A DNA stretch of 64,000 nt. Source: Mobula hypostoma (lineage: Eukaryota). The stretch covers positions 73,286,001-73,350,000 of the forward strand of contig NC_086097.1 of assembly GCF_963921235.1 (NCBI RefSeq). Direction: 5' to 3'. Below, piece after piece: positions 8,011-17,946 of this stretch. The position numbers and the translations under genes are program-made. The notes under the pieces were generated by a model. The model was not told the DNA's origin, did no database searches, and saw only the letters and a program-made list of their open reading frames with translations. Within the stretch, counting starts at the first letter, position 1; each line of letters starts with the position of its first letter.

Positions 8011-8892
8011 TTATTTTTTCTTATAGAAACATCTGCATGATGCTAAGCTAGGGCACATCATCAGTGATGTTGCCTGGGGTCGTCAGGTGTTTCGGGTCTT
8101 TCAACATCATACACCCTTGCCCAGGCAACCTGACCATGGTTGATCAGACCCCAGCCTGTGCCCTAGCAGCAATCCACAGATCTGCCCTCTTTATCCAGAG
8201 CCATCTTGATGTTTTCTCTGCTGCATTTGTGGTGGTAGAAATGGTTCTCCTCCTTCTCACTCCCATGATTCCAAGTGCAGTGTATACTTTGCAGAGCGAC
8301 TGGCCTGCAAAGCCACGGCACCTGACCTCCACGGGCCAACACTTCGCTCTCCAGCCTCTTCTTTGGCAGTTGTTCTTCAGATCTTCATAGTTGGCTCTTT
8401 TCCGCTGGTGGGCCTCCTCCATGCGTTCTTCCCACAGCTCAGTAAGCTGAAGTTTAAGAACGTGCTTCGGTGAGTTGGACTACAACACAGTGTCGAGCCA
8501 CAGTGTGGTCTCTGTGATGTGGGGAAGAAACTGCAGCTGTTTTCCCAGGTCTGCTTTTAGCTTCCAGTCCTGCGCAGTGGAGAACGACCCGATTGCTTTC
8601 TGGTGTTCTGTTGGTCTTTCTCCCCCTTTGACGAAGCAGATGGTATTCTTGACCAGACCTGTTTTCCGGCAGATGTTGAGGGTGCTGCAGATTGTCTCAG
8701 CAATTGTCCAGAGGACCTGGTCATGCCGCCACCGATAACGGCCATCGGCAAGAGCTCTGGGGCAGCAGCTCAGGATGTGCTCTAGTGTACCGGACTTCTC
8801 ACAGAGGGAGCAAGCTGGTCGTTCTGCAACGCCCCAGAAGTGCAGGTTGGATGGGCTGGGAAGGACGTCATAAACAGCCTGGATAAGGATTT
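8011..8892 (-). mobile_element. 5'-truncated HERO-like (restriction-like endonuclease) non-LTR retrotransposon, inserted into a CR1 3' fragment (~7893-8010 and ~8893-9110)
   Basis: The minus strand translates to ILIQAVYDVLPSPSNLHFWG..CSLCEKSGTLEHILSCC..DGRYRWRHDQVL (CCHC knuckle plus RHD motif) and WEERMEEAHQRKRANYEDL..CWPVEVRCRGF (PD-(D/E)xK RLE region). Stop at 8144, followed by a structured 3' UTR. Confidence 0.85.
8051..8130 (-). ncRNA. Candidate non-circularly permuted hammerhead ribozyme
   Basis: Minus strand reads GGUG-UA-UGAUGUUG aaa GACCC-GAAA-CACC ugacgaccccagg CAACAUCA-CUGAUGA-u-GUGCC. All core nucleotides are present. Stems I (8 bp) and III are perfect; stem II is weak. Confidence 0.55.
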
Positions 8893-9831: not shown

Positions 9832-12637
9832 TAAATGATTGAGTTTTAGTCTTTAGGTTCCTGTAGCTCCGACCATCTCAATAGTGAGAAAAGGGCACGT
9901 GGTAGATGGTGGAAGTTCTTATTGACTGATACTGCCTTCTTGAGGCATTGCCTCTTGAAGATGTCCTCAATGGTAGGGAGAATTGTGACTGTAATGGAAC
10001 CTAATTGTCTTATAATCCTCTGCAGCCTGTTGTGATTCTGTGCAATGGAGGCTCCACACGAATCTGTGATGTAACCAGTTAGAATGCTCTTCAACGTACA
10101 TCTTTAGGAAATTTCTAGAGTCTGTGGTAACATATCATATCTCAAGTCCCTGGTGAAGTAGAGTGCTGGCATGCTGCTTTCATGATTGCATCAATATGTT
10201 GAGCTTAGGATAGATCTTCTGAGATGTTGACGTCTGGGAGCTAGAAGCTGTTCATCCTTTCTACTGTTGACCCCTCAATGTGTTCTCCTGACTCTTCCCT
10301 TCCTAAAGTCTGTTCCTTGGTCTGGTTGACGTTAGCATGAGGTTGTTGTTGTGACACCACTCAACCAGACAATCTTTCTGGCTCCTCTAAGCCACCTCAT
10401 CGTCACCTGAGATTGTGAGTGTCATCGATGAATGTATAGATGGTGCTTGAGTGTTGAATTTATAGCATTTTTTTAAAAAATGACATTTTTTTAGTATAAT
10501 GTAGCCATCTCAATAAGCTATTGAAATGGGTTACAGAGATTGTGTATTACAAATATTTTCAACCAAGTATAACCTATTGTATTTTACCTGTTGTATTTAT
10601 AATCATTTACAGTATGCATTTAAAAGAAAATACATATATCAGTGTATTGGCTTATTACTGTCACAGATGCTGAGATTCAGTGAAAAGTTTGTCTTGCATA
10701 CTGTTCATACAGATCAAATCAGTACACAGTGCATTGAGGTAGAACAAGGTAAAATAATCCATATGTGCTTGTGTGTGTGTCCTTTATTTCATGGAATCCT
10801 GGTTAACCTCTTCTGTACAGGATGCAGCGATTCAGATCGACAGGTTTACTATACGCCATCAGGATAGATCTATACAGTCCCTCAAAAGCAGAGTGGAAGA
10901 GTATGCCTCATGATCAACTCCTCTTGGTGTACAGGTGTATCAGTGCTGTCCCAATTCTGACCTGGAATATCTCACAACTAAGTGTCGTCCATTTTGCCTA
11001 CCATGCGAGATTTCCATGATCATTTTGGTAGCGGTGTACATTCCACCTCAGGCCAATGTCAGTCAGGCTTTGGATGATCTGAGAAACGGGATCAACATGC
11101 ACGAAATAGCGCACCCTAATGCCTTCACCATTGGGGATTTTAACCAGGCCAGTCGGAAAAAATCACTTAGCAATTACCGTCAACAGATCACTTGCAATAC
11201 CAGAGGAAACAACACACTGGACTATTGTTACACCACCATCAAGAATGCCTGCCGTGATCTTCCGTGCCCTAACTTTGGGAAGTCTGATCATCTGGCTGTA
11301 CTTCTACTCCCTGAGTATCGGCAGAGACTAAAGACTGGAGCAGCAGTAGTGAGAGCCAAGAAGTTATGGACAAGGGAAGCACAGGAGCACTTACAGATCT
11401 GCTTTATATCAGTGGTCTGGTCCATATTCAGGGATCTATCTTTGAATCTGGATGAGTATGCTGCAGTTGTTCCCGACTTCAGTAAAACCTGTGTGGATGA
11501 ATGTGTGCCTACAATGACTTGCTGTACATTCCCAAACCAAAAGCCGTGGATAAGCCAGGAGGTACTTCATCTGCTGAAGGCTAGACCTGTGGCATTCAAG
11601 TCTGGCGACCCAGGTCTGTAGCAGAAAACTAGGTATTTCAAGGGCGAAAAGACAATTTAGAACGAGGTTGGAGGCAACATCGGATGTACAACAACTCTGG
11701 CAGGGTTTGCAAGACATTACTTCCTACGAAGTGAAACCCAATAGCACGAATGGCAGCAATGCTTCACTACCAGATGAACTAAACACCTTCTATGCCTGCC
11801 TTGAAAGGCAGAATATAACTGCAGTTGTGAAGATCCCTGCTGCACCTGGTGACCCTGTGATCTCTGTCTCAGAGGACGATGTTAGACTGTCTTTAAAGGG
11901 GGCGAACCCTTCCAAAATGGAAGGCCCCGACAGAGTACCTGGTAGGATTCTGAAAACTTGTGCCAACCAACTGGCGGGAGTATTCAAGGACAGTTTAAAC
12001 TCTTCACTGCTTTGGGCAGAAGTTCCCACTTGGCCAGATATGTCCCATTCAGCATTTAACACCATCATTCCCACAACCCTTATTGATAAGTTACAGAACC
12101 TGGGCCTCTGTACCTCCCTCTGCAATTGGATCCTTGACTTCCTAGCTAGGAGATCGTATTCTGTGTGGATTGGTGATAATATCGCCTCCTCGCTGACTGT
12201 CAGCATTGGTGCACCTCAGGGATGTGTGCTTAGGCCACTGCTCTACTCTTTCTATGTCTATGACCATGTGGCTAGGCATAGCTCAAATACCATCTAAAAA
12301 TTTGCTGACGATACATCAATTATTGGTGGAATCTCAGCTGGAGATGTGAGTGCGTACAGGAGCAAGGTATATCAACTAGTGGAGTGGTGTCGCAGCAACA
12401 ACCTGGCACTCAGCGTCAGTAGGACGAAAGAGTTGATCATGGACTTCAGGAAGGGTAAGATGAAGGAACATGTACCAACCCTCATAGGGGGATCAGAAGT
12501 GGAGGGAGAGAGCAGTTTCAAATTCCTGGGTGTCAAGATCTCCGAGGAACAAACCTGGTCCCAACATATCGATGCAGTTATAAAGAAGGCAAGACAGCGA
12601 CTATACTTCATTAGGAGTTTGAAGAGATTTGGTATGT

Positions 12638-15600
12638 ATTTGGTATAATGTAGTGGCCATTACAGAGACTTGGCTGGCACCAGGGCAGGAATGGATTCTC
12701 AATAGTCCTGGATTTCAGTGCTTTAAAAGGGATAGAGAGGGCGGAAAAAGGGGAGGAGGGGTGGCATTACTGGTCAGGGATACTATTACAGCTACAGAAA
12801 GGGTGGGTAATGTAGTAGGATCCTCTTTTGAGTCAATATGGGTGTTAGTCAGGAACAGGAAGGGAGCAGTTACTCTACTGGGGGTATTCTATAGGCCCCC
12901 TGGTAGCAGCAGAGATACAGAGGAGCAGATTGGGAGGTAGATTTTGGAAAGGCGCAAAAATAATAGGGTTGTTATCATGGGTGACTTTAACTTCCCTAAT
13001 ATTGATTGGCACCTGATTAGTTCCAAGGGTTTAGATGGGGCAGAATTTGTTAAGTGTGTCTAGGATGGATTCCTGTCACAGTATGTGGATAGGCCGACCA
13101 GGGGGAATGCCATACTAGATCCAGTACTAGGTAATGAACTGGGTCAGATCACAGATCTCTCAGTGAGTGAGCATCTGGGGGACAATGACCACCGCTCCCT
13201 GGCCTTTATAATTATCATGGAAAAGGATAGAATCAAAGAGGACAGGAAAATTTTTAATTGGGGAAGGGCAAATTATGAGGCTATAAGGCTAGATCTTGCG
13301 GGTGTGAATTGGGATGATGTTTTTGCAGGGAAATGTACTATGGACATGTGGTCGATGTTTAGAGATCTCTTGCGGGATGTAAGGGATAAATTTGTCCCGG
13401 TGAGGAAGATAAAGAATGGTAGGGTGAAGGAACCATGGGTGACAAGTGAGGTGGAAAATCTAGTCAGGTGGAAGAAGGCAGCATACATGAGGTTTAGGAA
13501 GCAAGGATCAGATGGGTCTATTGAGGAATATAGGGAAGCAAGAAAGGAGCTTAAGAAGGGGCTGAGAAGAGCAAGAAGGGGACATGAGAAGGCCTTGGCG
13601 AGTAGGGTAAAGGAAAATCCCAAGGCATTCTTCAGTTATGTGAAGAAAAAAAGGATGGCATAGAAACATAGAAAATAGGTGCAGGAGTAGGCCATTCGGC
13701 CCTTCGAGCCTGCACCGCCATTTATTATGATCATGGCTGATCATCCAACTCAGAACCCCGCCCCAGCCTTCCTTCCATACCCCCTGATTCCCATAGCCAC
13801 AAGGGCCATATCTAACTCCCTCTTAAATATAACCAATGAACTGGCCTCAACTGTTTCCTGTGGAAGAGAATTCCACAGATTCACCACTCTCTGTGTGAAG
13901 AAGTTTTTCCTAATCTCGGTCCTAAAAGGCTTCCCCTTTATCCTCAAACTGTGACCCCTTGTTCTGGACATCCCCAACATCGGGAACAATCTTCCTGCAT
14001 CTAGCCTGTCCAATCCCTTTAGGATTTTATACGTTTCAATCAGAACCCCCCTCAATCTTCTAAATTCCAATGAGTATAAGCCCAGTTCATCCAGTCTTCC
14101 TTCGTATGAAAGTCGTGCCATCCCAGGAATCAATCTGGTGAACCTTCTTTGTACTCCCTCTATGGCAAGGATGTCTTTCCTCAGATTAGGGGACCAAAAC
14201 TGCACACAATACTCCAGGTGTGGTCTCACCAAGGCCTTGTACAACTGCAGTAGTACCTCCCTGCTCCAGTACTCGAATCCTCTCGCTATAAATGCCAGCA
14301 TACCATTTGCCTTTTTCACCACCTGCTGTACCTGCATGCCCACTTTCAATGACTGGTGTATAATGACACCCAGGTCTCGTTGCACCTCCCCTTTTCCTAA
14401 TCGGCCACCATTCAGATAATAATCTTGTTTTCCTATTTTTGCCACCAAAGTGGATAACTTCACATTTATCCACATTAAATTGCATCTGCCATGAATTTGC
14501 CCACTCACCCAACCTATCCAAGTCACTCTGCATCCTCTTAGCATCCTCCTCACAGCTAACACTGCCACCCAGCTTCATGTCATCTGCAAACTTGGAGATG
14601 CTGCATTTAGTTCCCTAATCCAAGTCATTAATATATATTGTAAACAACTGGGGTCCCAGCACTGAGCCTTGCGGTACCCCACTAGTCACCGCCTGCCATT
14701 CTGAAAAGGTCCCGTTTATTCCCACTCTTTGCTTTCCTGTCTGCTAACCAATTCTCCATCCACATCAATACCTTATCCCCAATACCGTGTGCTTTAAGTT
14801 TGCACACTAATCTCCTGTGTGGGACCTTGTCAAAAGCCTTTTGAAAATCCAAATATACCACATCCACTGGTTCTCCCCTATCCACTCTACTGGTTACATC
14901 CTCAAAAAATTCTATGAGATTCATCAGACATGATTTTCCTTTCACAAATCCATGCTGACTTTGTCCGATGATTTCACCGCTTTCCAAATGTGCTGTTATC
15001 ACATCTTTGATAACTGACTCCAGCAGTTTCCCCACCACCGACGTTAGGCTAACCGGTCTATAATTCCCCGGTTTCTCGCTCCCTCCTTTTTTAAAAAGTG
15101 GGGTTACATTAGCCACCCTCCAATCCTCAGGAACTAGTCCAGAATCTAATGAGTTTTGAAAAATTATCACTAATGCATCCACTATTTCTTGGGCTACTTC
15201 CTTAAGCACTCTGGGATGCAGACCGTCTGGCCCTGGGGATTTATCTGCCTTCAATCCCTTCAATTTACCTAACACCACTTCCCTACTAACAAGTATTTCG
15301 CTCAGGTCCTCCATCTCACTGGACCCTCTGTCCCCTACTATTTCTGGAAGATTATTTATGTCCTCCTTAGTGAAGACAGAACCAAAGTAATTATTCAATT
15401 GGTCTGCCATGTCCTTGCTCCCCATAATCAATTCACCTGTTTCTGTCTGTAGGGGATCTACATCCGTCTTTACCAGTCTTTTCCTTTTTACATATCTATA
15501 AAAGCTTTTACAGTCAGTTTTTATGTTCCCTGCCAGTTTTCTCTCATAATCTTTTTTCCCCTTCCTAATTAAGCCCTTTGTCCTCCTCTGCTGAACTCTG

Positions 15601-17946
15601 AATTTCTCCCAGTCCTCAGGTGAGCCACTTTCTCTGGCTAATTTGTATGCTTCTTCTTTGGAATTGATACTATCCCTAATTTCTCTTGTCAGCCACGGGT
15701 GCACTACCTTCCTTGATTTATTCTTTTGCCAAACTGGGATGAAGAATTGTTGTAGTTCATCCATGCAACCTTTAAATGCTTGCCATTGCATATCCATCGT
15801 CAATCCTTTAAGTGTCATTTGCCAGTCTATCTTAGCTAATTCACGTCTCATACCTTCAAAGTTACCCCTCTTTAAGTTCAGAACCTTTGTTTCTGAATTA
15901 ACTATGTCACTCTCCATCTTAATGAAGAATTCCACTATATTATGGTCACTCTTACCCAAGGGGCCTCTCACGACAAGATTGCCAATTAACCCTTCCTCAT
16001 TGCTCAAAACCCAGTCCAGAATAGCCTACTCTCTAGTTGGTTCCTCGACATGTTGGTTCAAAAAACCATCCCGCCTACATTCCAAGAAATCCTCTTTCTC
16101 AGCACCTTTACCAATTTGGTTCACCCAATCTACATGTAGATTGAAGTCACCCATTATAACTGCTGTTCCTTTATTGCACACATTTCTAATTTTGACAGGA
16201 GTGAAGGTAGGACTGATTAGAGATAAAGGTGGGAAGATGTGCCTGGAGGCTGTGGAAGTGAGCGAGGTCCTCAATGAATACTTCTGTTGGGTATTCACCA
16301 ATGAGAGGGAACTTGATGATGGTGAGGACAATATGAGTGAGGTTGATGTTCTGGAGCATGTTGATATTAAGGGAGAGGTGGTGTTGGAGTTGTCAAAATA
16401 CATTAGGACAGATAAGTCCCCGGGGCCTGACGGAATATTCCCCAGGCTGCTCCACGAGGCGAGAGAAGAGATTGCTGAGCCTCTGGCTAGGATCTTTATG
16501 TTGTCCACGGGAATGGTACCGGAGGATTGGAGGGAGGCGAATGTTGTTCCCTTGTTCAAAAAAGGTAGTAGGGATAGTCTGGGTAATTATAGACCAGTGA
16601 GCCTTACGTCTGTGGTAGGAAAGCTGTTGGAAAAGATTCTTAGAGATAGGATCTATAGGCATTTAGAGAATCATGGTCTGATCAGGGACAGTCAGCATGG
16701 CTTTGTGAAGGGCAGATCGTGACTAACAAGCATGATAGAGTTCTTTGAGGAGGTGACCAGGCATATAGATGAGGGTAGTGCAGTGGATGTGATCTATATG
16801 AATTTTAGTAAAGCATTTGACAAGGTTCCACATGGTAGGCTTATTCAGAAAGTCAGAAGGCATGGGATCCAGGGAAGTTTGGCCAGGTGGATTCAGAATT
16901 GGCTTGCCTCCAGAAGGCAGAGAGTGGTTGTGGAGGGAGTACATTCAGATTGGAGGATTGTGACTAGTGGTGTCCCACAAGGATCTGTTCTGGGACCTCT
17001 ACTTTTTGTGATTTTTATTAACGACCTGGATGTGGGGGTAGAAGGGTGTGTTGGCAAGTTTGCAGACGACACAAAGGTTGGTGGTGTTGTAGATAGTGTA
17101 GAGGATTGTCAAAGATTGCAGAGAGACATTGATAGGATGCAGAAGTGGGCTGAGAAGTGGCAGATGGAGTTCAACCCGGAGAAGTGTGAGGTGGTACACT
17201 TTGGAAGGACAAACTCCAAGGCAGAGTACAAAGTAAATGGCAGGATACTTGGTAGTGTGGAGAAGCAGAAGGATCTGGGGGTACATGTCCACAGATCCCT
17301 GAAAGTTGCCTCACAGGTGGATAGGGTAGTTAAGAAAGCTTATGGGGTGTTAGCTTTCATAAGTCGAGGGATAGAGTTTAAGAGTCGCGATGTAATGATG
17401 CAGCTCTATAAAACTCTGCTTAGGCCACACTTGGAGTACTGTGTCCAGTTCTGGTCACCTCACTATAGGAAGGATGTGGAAGCATTGGAAAGGGTACAGA
17501 GGAGATTTACCAGGATGCTGCCTGGTTTAGAAAGTATGCATTATGATCAGAGATTAAGGGAGCTAGGGCTTTACTCTTTGGAGAGAAGGAGGATGAGAGG
17601 AGACATGATAGAGGTGTACAAGATAATAAGAGAAATAGATGGAGTGGATAGCCAGTGCCTCTTCCCCAGGGCACCACTGCTCAATACAAGAGGAAATGGT
17701 TTTAAGGTAAGGGGTGGGAAGTTCAAGGGGGATATTAGAGGAAGGTTTTTTACTCAGAGTGGTTGGTGTGTGGAGTGCACTGCCTGAGTCAGTGGTGGAG
17801 GCAGATACACTAGTGAAGTTTAAGAGACTACTTGATAGGTATATGGAGGAATCTAAGGTGGGAGCTTATATGGGCAGGGTTTGAGGGTCGGCACAACATT
17901 GTGGGCTGAAGCGCCTGTACTGTGCTGTACTATTCTATCTATCTAT
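12638..17946 (+). mobile_element. CR1 LINE ORF2 (APE + RT), 5'-truncated, interrupted at 13659-16192
   Basis: VVAITETWL, GVFYRPP and LGDNDH in the first part. KAFFSYVKKKRM continues as TGVKVGLIRD after the insertion. RT motifs [26 protein letters not shown]. Tail tattctatctatctatg. Confidence 0.9.
13659..16192 (-). mobile_element. Young 5'-truncated CR1 (same family as 47969-52307) nested in reverse orientation
   Basis: ORFs 14682-16007 and 13750-14568 are almost identical in translation to 49210-52238. (catagaaa)n tail at 13659-13674. Short tggca/tgaca duplication at the junctions. Confidence 0.92.

What the first reader, a model, noticed from the sequence alone, without database searches (positions are those of the whole stretch)
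8051..8130. Hammerhead core in a non-circularly permuted, triple-crossing strand order in the 3' UTR of a HERO-like LINE
Seen: about 30 nt after the ORF stop, the minus strand reads GGUG-UA-UGAUGUUG-aaa-GACCC-GAAA-CACC-ugacgaccccagg-CAACAUCA-CUGAUGA-u-GUGCCC. The hammerhead elements CUGAUGA, GAAA and GUH are all present. Stem III is GGUGU/ACACC and stem I is UGAUGUUG/CAACAUCA (8 bp). Stem II, GUGCC/GACCC, makes only 3 of 5 pairs in this copy. Known: hammerhead types I, II and III are cyclic permutations of the order [I'-CUGANGA-II][II'-GAAA-III][III'-UH-I]. Here the three strands occur in the reverse order, so all three helices cross and none has a closing loop. An upstream GUUGCCUGGG can also pair with CCCAGGCAAC, extending stem III or competing with stem I. 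Inference: a self-cleaving or switchable RNA at the 3' end of an RLE retrotransposon, cutting between 8110 and 8109 and acting as a monomer or dimer. Ribozymes of R2-like elements are normally 5' HDV-like. I recall that natural non-circular hammerhead permutations have been reported, but I cannot confirm whether this family is among them.
Basis: partly seen in the sequence, partly recalled or inferred. Interest (0 to 1): 0.8.

Follow-up and report, generated by a model that had tools for sequence, protein, structure and literature searches.

The report
Split-core hammerhead ribozyme in HERO-like retrotransposons
The tail of a widespread family of jumping genes carries a conserved hammerhead-ribozyme fold whose strands are wired in an order not found in the papers searched, and the longest copies repeat their own end at their start, so the element likely cuts its RNA and rejoins it into a circle that its reverse transcriptase would copy more than once around.

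Summary
In relatives only 35-60% alike in protein, the core is conserved with a ribozyme's signature (position 7 free, position 17 almost never G) and six helices covary. Stem II's partner lies upstream (93% paired, 41 families), not after CUGAnGA (49%). The strand after A9 instead closes a helix stacked on a hairpin, splitting the core between A9 and G10.1. That order falls outside the six permutations of Eckert et al. 2023, who found crossed forms almost only in environmental sequence. Of 68 copies of a sister subfamily that hold the unit start, 59 run on upstream into a copy of their own 3' end; none of the copies checked begins or ends at the cut. Best reading: two ribozymes release a unit-length RNA, its ends re-pair and join, and reverse transcription rolls past the join, as proposed for Penelope elements. 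Cleavage and circles are untested. The window's copy is a decayed fragment. Two earlier scan notes on this genome saw the motif and judged it non-catalytic; the upstream stem II removes their objection.

The parts
8157..8167 (-). Pc 5' strand (closing helix), overlapping the last codons of the ORF
   Evidence: 11 of 11 pairs with 8057-8047; 7 significant covarying pairs
8132..8156 (-). Ph hairpin, directly between Pc and G10.1; loop holds the palindrome UGAUCA (8146-8141), whose first three bases are this subfamily's stop codon
   Evidence: 7 of 8 pairs here, weakened by G-U pairs; 87% paired in 41 families
8127..8131 (-). true stem II 5' strand (10.1-10.5); this copy has A at 10.1 where the family has G
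   Evidence: G at 10.1 in 25 of 30 copies of this subfamily
8120..8126 (-). P0 5' strand, the helix joining the outer ends of stems I and II
   Evidence: 7 of 7 pairs; 96% paired in 40 families
8111..8116 (-). stem III 5' strand ending in G16.2-U16.1
   Evidence: 6 of 6 pairs
8109..8110 (-). position 17 (A, 8110) and the predicted cut between 8110 and 8109
   Evidence: by analogy with hammerheads; position 17 is G in 1 of 42 relatives when left free
8103..8109 (-). stem I 5' strand
   Evidence: 7 of 7 pairs; 91% paired in 41 families
8094..8098 (-). stem II 3' strand (11.5-11.1, GACCC)
8085..8093 (-). G12-A13-A14-A15.1 and stem III 3' strand
   Evidence: GAAA in 38 of 41 families
8072..8078 (-). 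P0 3' strand
8058..8071 (-). stem I 3' strand and C3-U4-G5-A6-N7-G8-A9
   Evidence: CUGAnGA in 38 of 41 families, N7 takes all four bases
8047..8057 (-). Pc 3' strand, starting at the base right after A9
   Evidence: the pair next to A9 forms in 40 of 41 families
8018..8890 (-). 5'-truncated, frame-broken copy of a HERO-like LINE (zinc knuckle and restriction-like endonuclease end, tail); fixed 3' end near 8018
   Evidence: about 780 nt of element upstream of the cut

Best explanation
The element's tail holds a conserved, covarying hammerhead fold with its core split between A9 and G10.1, and it likely cuts the element's RNA at two repeated copies so that the released unit-length RNA would rejoin into a circle that is the template for reverse transcription. 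SHOWN: six helices in the order Pc5'-Ph-II5'-P0-III5'-UH-I5'-II3'-GAAA-III3'-P0'-I3'-CUGAnGA-Pc3'; copies end at a fixed point about 86 nt after the predicted cut; the longest copies are longer than one unit, have no fixed 5' end and cross the tail-to-start junction and the cut site without a seam. INFERRED: (1) Pc and Ph stack into one helix that swaps strands with the core at A9/G10.1, leaving the active site intact; (2) a copy with a whole ribozyme at each end, read through from host DNA, is cut at both; (3) the two ends of the monomer are the two halves of one ribozyme and re-pair through Pc, II, P0 and III (about 29 base pairs), which favours ligation by the ribozyme or a host ligase, or an end-to-end jump by the RT; (4) target-primed reverse transcription starts inside this closed template, 86 nt from the join, and when it completes a round it runs on and rebuilds the terminal repeat. 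Odds by step: fold 0.9, cleavage 0.75, closed-template cycle 0.55.
For: Descriptor 42 of 63 loci against 0 of 1260 shuffles. A search by pairing alone, with no core letters asked, lands on a perfect core in all 10 distinct loci with the top score. In 41 families under 80% alike (median 46%): stems I 91%, II 93%, III 94%, P0 96%, Pc 90%, Ph 87% paired, each above all 2000 strand swaps. In a tree-aware test 20 of 21 significant column pairs are proposed pairs, 3 each in stems I and II, which the alignment model did not contain. Core: CUGAnGA 38 of 41, GAAA 38 of 41, G10.1-C11.1 33 of 41 plus 5 G-U; position 17 G in 1 of 42 against 29.5% G background. One extra base between A9 and G10.1 is tolerated in a viroid hammerhead (PMC3705267, passages), and the type-SGC search pattern allows a U there (PMC10085705 supplement, part 8). 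Architecture in subfamily B: 59 of 68 copies holding the unit start continue upstream into the 3' end, 40 past the cut, 34 with a whole second ribozyme, longest 1041 nt of a 3637-nt unit. The upstream repeat shares minority variants with its own 3' end 42 times, null mean 18.2, maximum 33 in 5000 permutations, 29 copies. No two of 68 share 5' flank. Copies thin out at 1 per about 1200 and 760 nt inside the unit, and the extra length beyond one unit averages 265 nt, as expected if the RT meets its own cDNA. The same tail-to-start join is seen in 2 of 30 copies of the window's subfamily and in 10 of 36 metagenome loci with at least 500 nt downstream.
Against: No cleavage, ligation or circular RNA was observed. 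No hammerhead with a helix inserted at A9/G10.1 turned up in my searches, so activity of this wiring has no precedent I could read. U at position 17 (11 of 41) and weak pairs occur. No copies begin at the cut (2 pattern hits against 1747 intact, both one-base deletions) and none ends there: this fits a closed template but equally an RNA that is never cut. The drop in length beyond one unit rests on exact-match counts of different 26-mers and could also come from source transcripts of limited upstream reach. An AUG after the ribozyme is not conserved. Four loci with long downstream sequence (L060, L072, L082, L084) gave no match. Metagenome joins may be assembly collapses of repeats.
Confidence: 0.55

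Rival explanations
1. Active ribozyme, no closed template: only the upstream copy matters, cutting the element out of a host read-through transcript and perhaps helping cap-independent translation (as R2's 5' HDV-like ribozyme does), while the terminal repeat is rebuilt by template switching between RNA molecules, possibly paired through the palindromic loop.
For: In two-ribozyme copies the motif sits just before the ORF. Hammerhead cleavage was needed for translation initiation in a chrysovirus UTR (PMC13725137, passages). No conserved AUG. A 6-nt palindrome sits at the hairpin apex in 27 of 41 families against 8.6% by shuffle, with five alternative palindromes.
Against: A linear RNA starting at the cut should give copies that start at the cut; 2 of 68 end within 3 nt of it and 40 pass it. 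The 3' copy is identical and should also be cut. Shared variants between the two ends favour one template.
Confidence: 0.22
2. Non-catalytic docking structure: the fold is the site where the element's protein binds to start reverse transcription, the hammerhead-like core no longer cuts, and greater-than-unit copies come from uncut read-through of tandem source copies.
For: Every genomic copy examined is continuous across the site. The fixed 3' end lies a short, constant distance from the fold. Two earlier scan notes reached this reading (unchecked AI notes).
Against: Their stated objection, that the strand needed for stem II is held in another helix, falls once stem II is taken from upstream. 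A binding site gives no reason for G to be avoided at 17 while N7 is free. Uncut read-through should leave shared 5' ends or flanks (0 shared among 68) and cannot regenerate a repeat that shortens each round; no copy with two full units was found among 69.
Confidence: 0.15
3. Self-limiting switch: the ribozyme destroys element RNA unless a ribosome finishing the ORF, or the new protein, unfolds or shields it, enforcing cis preference.
For: Pc and Ph overlap or closely follow the stop codon in many families (stop 31-83 nt before the cut in 29 of 41 loci); some fish proteins read through the 5' half up to the cut (P0017, P0030, P0037, P0067, P0070, P0079).
Against: In 12 of 41 loci the stop lies 102-432 nt away. 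It does not explain the terminal repeat. It could be a side role of the best explanation.
Confidence: 0.06
4. One reading: a plain type-SGC hammerhead with stem II formed by the strand after CUGAnGA.
For: The order of the three core pieces, the short I-II linker and the U after A9 resemble type SGC (PMC10085705, results and supplement).
Against: That stem pairs in 49% of cells, reaches 4 pairs in 2 of 41 loci and has no significant pair; its strand is used by Pc.
Confidence: 0.02

Closest known systems
Non-circularly permuted hammerheads, types SGC, CSG, GCS (Eckert et al. 2023, PMC10085705; read parts 2-6 of 8 of the main text and supplement parts 1, 8 and search hits)
   Same: Full core; the three core pieces follow the crossed S-G-C cycle; short linker from stem I to stem II; a helix (here P0) joining the outer ends of stems I and II.
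   Different: That paper assumes CUGAnGA and its stem II strand cannot be separated and counts six orders; here they are separated by two helices and the RNA opens there. [quoted passage not shown] Its SGC pattern needs a stem II strand after CUGAUGA(U)G and so would not match this fold (my reading of the pattern).
Penelope-like elements with hammerheads in their terminal repeats (Cervera and de la Pena 2014, PMC4209133, passages) and metazoan retrozymes (PMC7229834, abstract and passages)
   Same: Hammerhead in a direct terminal repeat; head-to-tail, more-than-unit copies; proposed cut, circularise, reverse-transcribe past the join.
   Different: Those are type I or minimal hammerheads with telomerase-like RT and GIY-YIG nuclease, or non-coding elements; this is an R2-group LINE with a restriction-like nuclease and a different ribozyme wiring.
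R2 and related RLE LINEs with 5' HDV-like ribozymes (PMC13580325 and PMC7650587, passages; Ruminski 2011 seen only as a citation)
   Same: Single ORF with RT, zinc knuckle and RLE; closest solved structures are R2 proteins; a ribozyme placed to free the element from a host transcript.
   Different: R2 has a distinct 5' ribozyme of another class and defined ends; here one hammerhead sits in a repeated end, no fixed 5' end exists, and Rfam finds no HDV-like motif in a full-length copy.
Viroid hammerhead with an extra base between A9 and G10.1 (CChMVd; PMC3705267, passages of a review)
   Same: The same backbone position carries an insertion.
   Different: One base there, against a two-helix insertion of about 45-55 nt that includes the RNA's ends; C or G at that position was harmful in the viroid.

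Membership tests
Hammerhead ribozyme | Core C3-U4-G5-A6-N7-G8-A9, G12-A13-A14, A15.1-U16.1 | tested here: met
   38 of 41 families each for CUGAnGA and GAAA, U-A 39 of 41; N7 free
Hammerhead ribozyme | NUH site (position 17 not G) | tested here: met
   G in 1 of 42 with the position left free
Hammerhead ribozyme | Stems I, II, III abutting the core, with G10.1-C11.1 | tested here: met
   this window's copy has A at 10.1
Hammerhead ribozyme | Interaction between the outer parts of stems I and II | tested here: met
   P0 follows the stem II 5' strand and precedes the stem I 3' strand; 4 significant pairs
Hammerhead ribozyme | Site-specific self-cleavage lost in a core mutant | not testable with these tools
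   only contigs were available
Type-SGC hammerhead (Eckert 2023) | Order S, G, C of the core pieces | tested here: met
Type-SGC hammerhead (Eckert 2023) | Block C unbroken: stem II strand within 1-2 nt after A9 | tested here: not met
   so it works like, but is not filed as, type SGC
Hammerhead types I, II, III | Nested three-way junction without crossing helices | tested here: not met
   stems I, II, III cross; no Rfam match
R2 group of non-LTR retrotransposons | Single ORF, RT followed by PD-(D/E)xK-like nuclease (PMC3636483, passage) | tested here: met
   1166-aa ORF in a sister copy with RVT_1 and zf-RVT, best PDB matches R2; nuclease motif read by eye from the sequence
HERO clade | No specific target site (PMC3636483, passage) | tested here: met
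   unrelated flanks in 30 and 68 copies
HERO clade | RT tree groups with named HERO elements | not tested
Elements that replicate through ribozyme-made circles (retrozymes; proposed for Penelope) | More-than-unit copies with a ribozyme in each repeat | tested here: met
   34 of 68 copies hold a whole upstream ribozyme
Elements that replicate through ribozyme-made circles (retrozymes; proposed for Penelope) | Unit-length circular RNA in cells | not testable with these tools
   searches were uninformative

The most novel reading that the evidence does not exclude
An ancient, autonomous R2-group LINE clade replicates through a ribozyme-made circular RNA: a seventh hammerhead wiring, opened at A9/G10.1 by a helix that swaps strands with the core, acts as both cutter and clasp, and the apparent 3' end of the element is an internal start site for reverse transcription on a closed template; a palindromic loop may pair two such RNAs.
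Probability: 0.45. Interest if true: 0.95.

Novelty: new variant of a known kind. Interest (0 to 1): 0.87.

Why it matters
It would extend the hammerhead fold beyond the six orders thought possible and give crossed hammerheads their first clear genomic home and job, with dozens of natural variants ready for assay. It would also overturn the picture of R2-group LINEs as linear elements primed at an RNA 3' end, and make a long-standing proposal (cut, circularise, copy more than once around) directly testable in an element with a simple one-protein system. R2-type proteins are in use for gene insertion, so a relative that primes internally on a circular RNA, and a self-closing RNA clasp, would be of practical use.

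Tried and rejected
Rfam: no relevant match. Viral contigs: pattern 0 hits, protein relatives 0 of 21 candidates. The tool for contigs of named proteins was closed, so the motif was not read in named species; only protein tails that translate its 5' half point to carps. Idea that the cut-off 3' piece or 5' piece is copied alone: rejected (0 of 29 and 0 of 30 copies start at the cut; genome-wide). Idea that an AUG in the tail starts the ORF in all families: true for one subfamily, rejected as general. Public runs: contigs only, of uncertain RNA origin; depth follows the genomic copy profile and shows no ends, so no evidence either way. Single-sequence folding recovers Pc and mostly Ph, P0 and III (z -3.6 to -4.5 in 6 of 6) but cannot show crossing helices. 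Best-of-16-registers search for stem II alone is a weak test (null reaches 4 pairs in about 39%), so fixed-register tests were used. The pairing-only search is unreliable below its top score. The protein tree was unfinished and used only to pick diverse rows. L049 and L050, two different families head to tail on one contig, were not resolved.

Full report
Observation. The element is a 5'-truncated piece of an RT retrotransposon, about 8018-8890, with 1554 first-look candidates in the genome and a younger sister subfamily, B. A near-full-length B copy has one 1166-aa ORF with RT and zinc knuckle whose best solved relatives are R2 proteins. Rfam has nothing for the motif.

Prior art. Eckert et al. 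2023 (PMC10085705; main text parts 2-6 of 8, supplement parts 1 and 8 and term searches) split the hammerhead into blocks S, G and C, assumed the blocks cannot be interrupted, and so counted six orders. They report none in genomes of known organisms but one weak GCS case, and their main text has no mention of HERO or fish. Paper searches for HERO with hammerhead or ribozyme, for later SGC work, for LINE hammerheads and for helices inserted at A9/G10.1 found no description of this motif; the library lacks most subscription papers and Repbase reports, and bioRxiv supplements were closed. A 2026 preprint on new ribozymes has no mention of HERO in its main text.

Conservation. A protein alignment of 40 relatives fetched the best 80 of 436 metagenome loci, mostly 35-60% identical in protein. 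A covariance model built from 38 sequences found 61 of 71 loci given, 24 of them outside its training set. Of the 10 misses, five have about 200 nt or less after the ORF, L097 has the motif farther off and four are unexplained.

The strand after A9 pairs with a strand farther upstream (Pc), and a hairpin (Ph) fills the space between Pc and G10.1 with no spare base. The helix P0 joins what follows the stem II strand to what precedes the stem I strand, the position of the stem I-II interaction helix in types SGC and CSG. Pc, Ph, P0 and III were in the model that aligned the rows, so their counts lean my way; stems I and II were not. Two structure strings were typed one column off for stem II; only the corrected register is used.

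The core behaves like a catalyst's. CUGAnGA and GAAA are each kept in 38 of 41 families, N7 takes all four bases, G10.1 pairs with C or U in 38 of 41, and position 17 is G in 1 of 42 when left free. A search by pairing alone lands on a perfect core in all 10 distinct top-scoring loci, though it is unreliable at lower scores. The backbone between A9 and G10.1 tolerates one extra base in a viroid (PMC3705267, passages). By inference, Pc and Ph stack as one helix with a nick whose two ends connect to A9 and G10.1, a strand swap that needs no distortion of the core; this is reasoning, not a model. The window's own copy has A at 10.1 and a weakened Ph and is probably impaired.

What the cut would do. 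Neither product is copied alone: 0 of 29 and 0 of 30 copies start at the cut; genome-wide there are 1747 intact matches and 2 without the three upstream letters, both one-base deletions; none ends at the cut. The clue came from full-length copies: L202 and L203 carry 216 and about 600 nt of their own 3' end in front of the ORF. A pattern just inside the unit start has 69 matches; of 68 analysed (L203 is the other), 59 continue upstream into the 3' end, 40 pass the cut, 34 hold a whole second ribozyme, 4 stop within 3 nt of the junction and 2 within 3 nt of the cut; the longest repeat is 1041 nt. So the element has a fixed 3' end 86 nt after the cut and no fixed 5' end. In 29 testable copies the upstream repeat shares minority variants with its own 3' end far more than with others (42 against 18.2, maximum 33), which argues against later insertion of a second copy. 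No two share 5' flank, which argues against read-through of a few finite sources. Copy numbers fall from 1897 to 241 to 69 along the unit, one loss per about 1200 and 760 nt, while the excess beyond one unit averages 265 nt; these are rough exact-match counts. The same join appears in 2 of 30 copies of the window's subfamily and 10 of 36 metagenome loci with enough sequence, with the caveat of collapsed assemblies.

Mechanism. A template that is continuous across the element's ends, comes from one molecule and is rebuilt each round is most simply a circle, or a linear monomer whose ends are held together for an RT jump. The ribozyme cut is the only candidate join. After cutting at two repeats, the monomer's ends are the two halves of one ribozyme and can re-pair through four helices. 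This is the cycle proposed for Penelope elements (PMC4209133, passages) and shown in part for retrozymes, where a protein ligase did far better than self-ligation (PMC7229834, passages). All steps from cleavage onward are inferred. Public runs were contigs of uncertain RNA origin and add nothing.

Earlier scan notes. Two notes on other copies in this genome called the motif a look-alike because a strand needed for stem II is held in another helix. That is right about the downstream strand, but stem II forms with the upstream strand, which I had found before reading them and then tested.

Verdict. A real, deeply conserved hammerhead-type fold in a wiring outside the published six, in an R2-group LINE with more-than-unit copies. 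New variant of a known kind; interest 0.87; cleavage and circles await a simple bench test.

Noticed in passing
window 8141-8146 and related loci: The hairpin apex is a 6-nt palindrome in 27 of 41 families (UGAUCA 17, UGGCCA 5, GACGUC 2, three others once each); possible kissing-loop dimer site. The GACGUC cases may only reflect stem pairing.
   Followed up: partly
proteins P0017, P0030, P0037, P0067, P0070, P0079: These fish ORFs read through the 5' half of the ribozyme and end at or next to the predicted cut; in the matching frame of L034 the stop codon is the first three bases after the cut, so cleavage would remove the stop.
   Followed up: partly
L200, L201: Two genomic copies lack exactly the base at position 17; could be scars of imprecise rejoining, but there is no control for one-base deletions elsewhere.
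   Followed up: no
L049 and L050 (one contig): Two different families lie head to tail one unit apart, both with the UGGCCA loop; hybrid template or assembly chimera.
   Followed up: no
L097, about 600 nt after the ORF: A full motif with all helices, read by eye, that the covariance model missed; L074 has it 432 nt after the stop.
   Followed up: partly
L070, L071, L073, L080, L105, just after the ORF: tRNA-like sequences by eye between the stop codon and the ribozyme position in several distant relatives; not scanned.
   Followed up: no
L060:1148-1750: A relative whose ORF is followed about 600 nt later by the start of the next unit with no motif match in between; may use another ribozyme.
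   Followed up: no
window 10900-16700: Fragments of other LINEs with endonuclease and RT reading frames on both strands.
   Followed up: no
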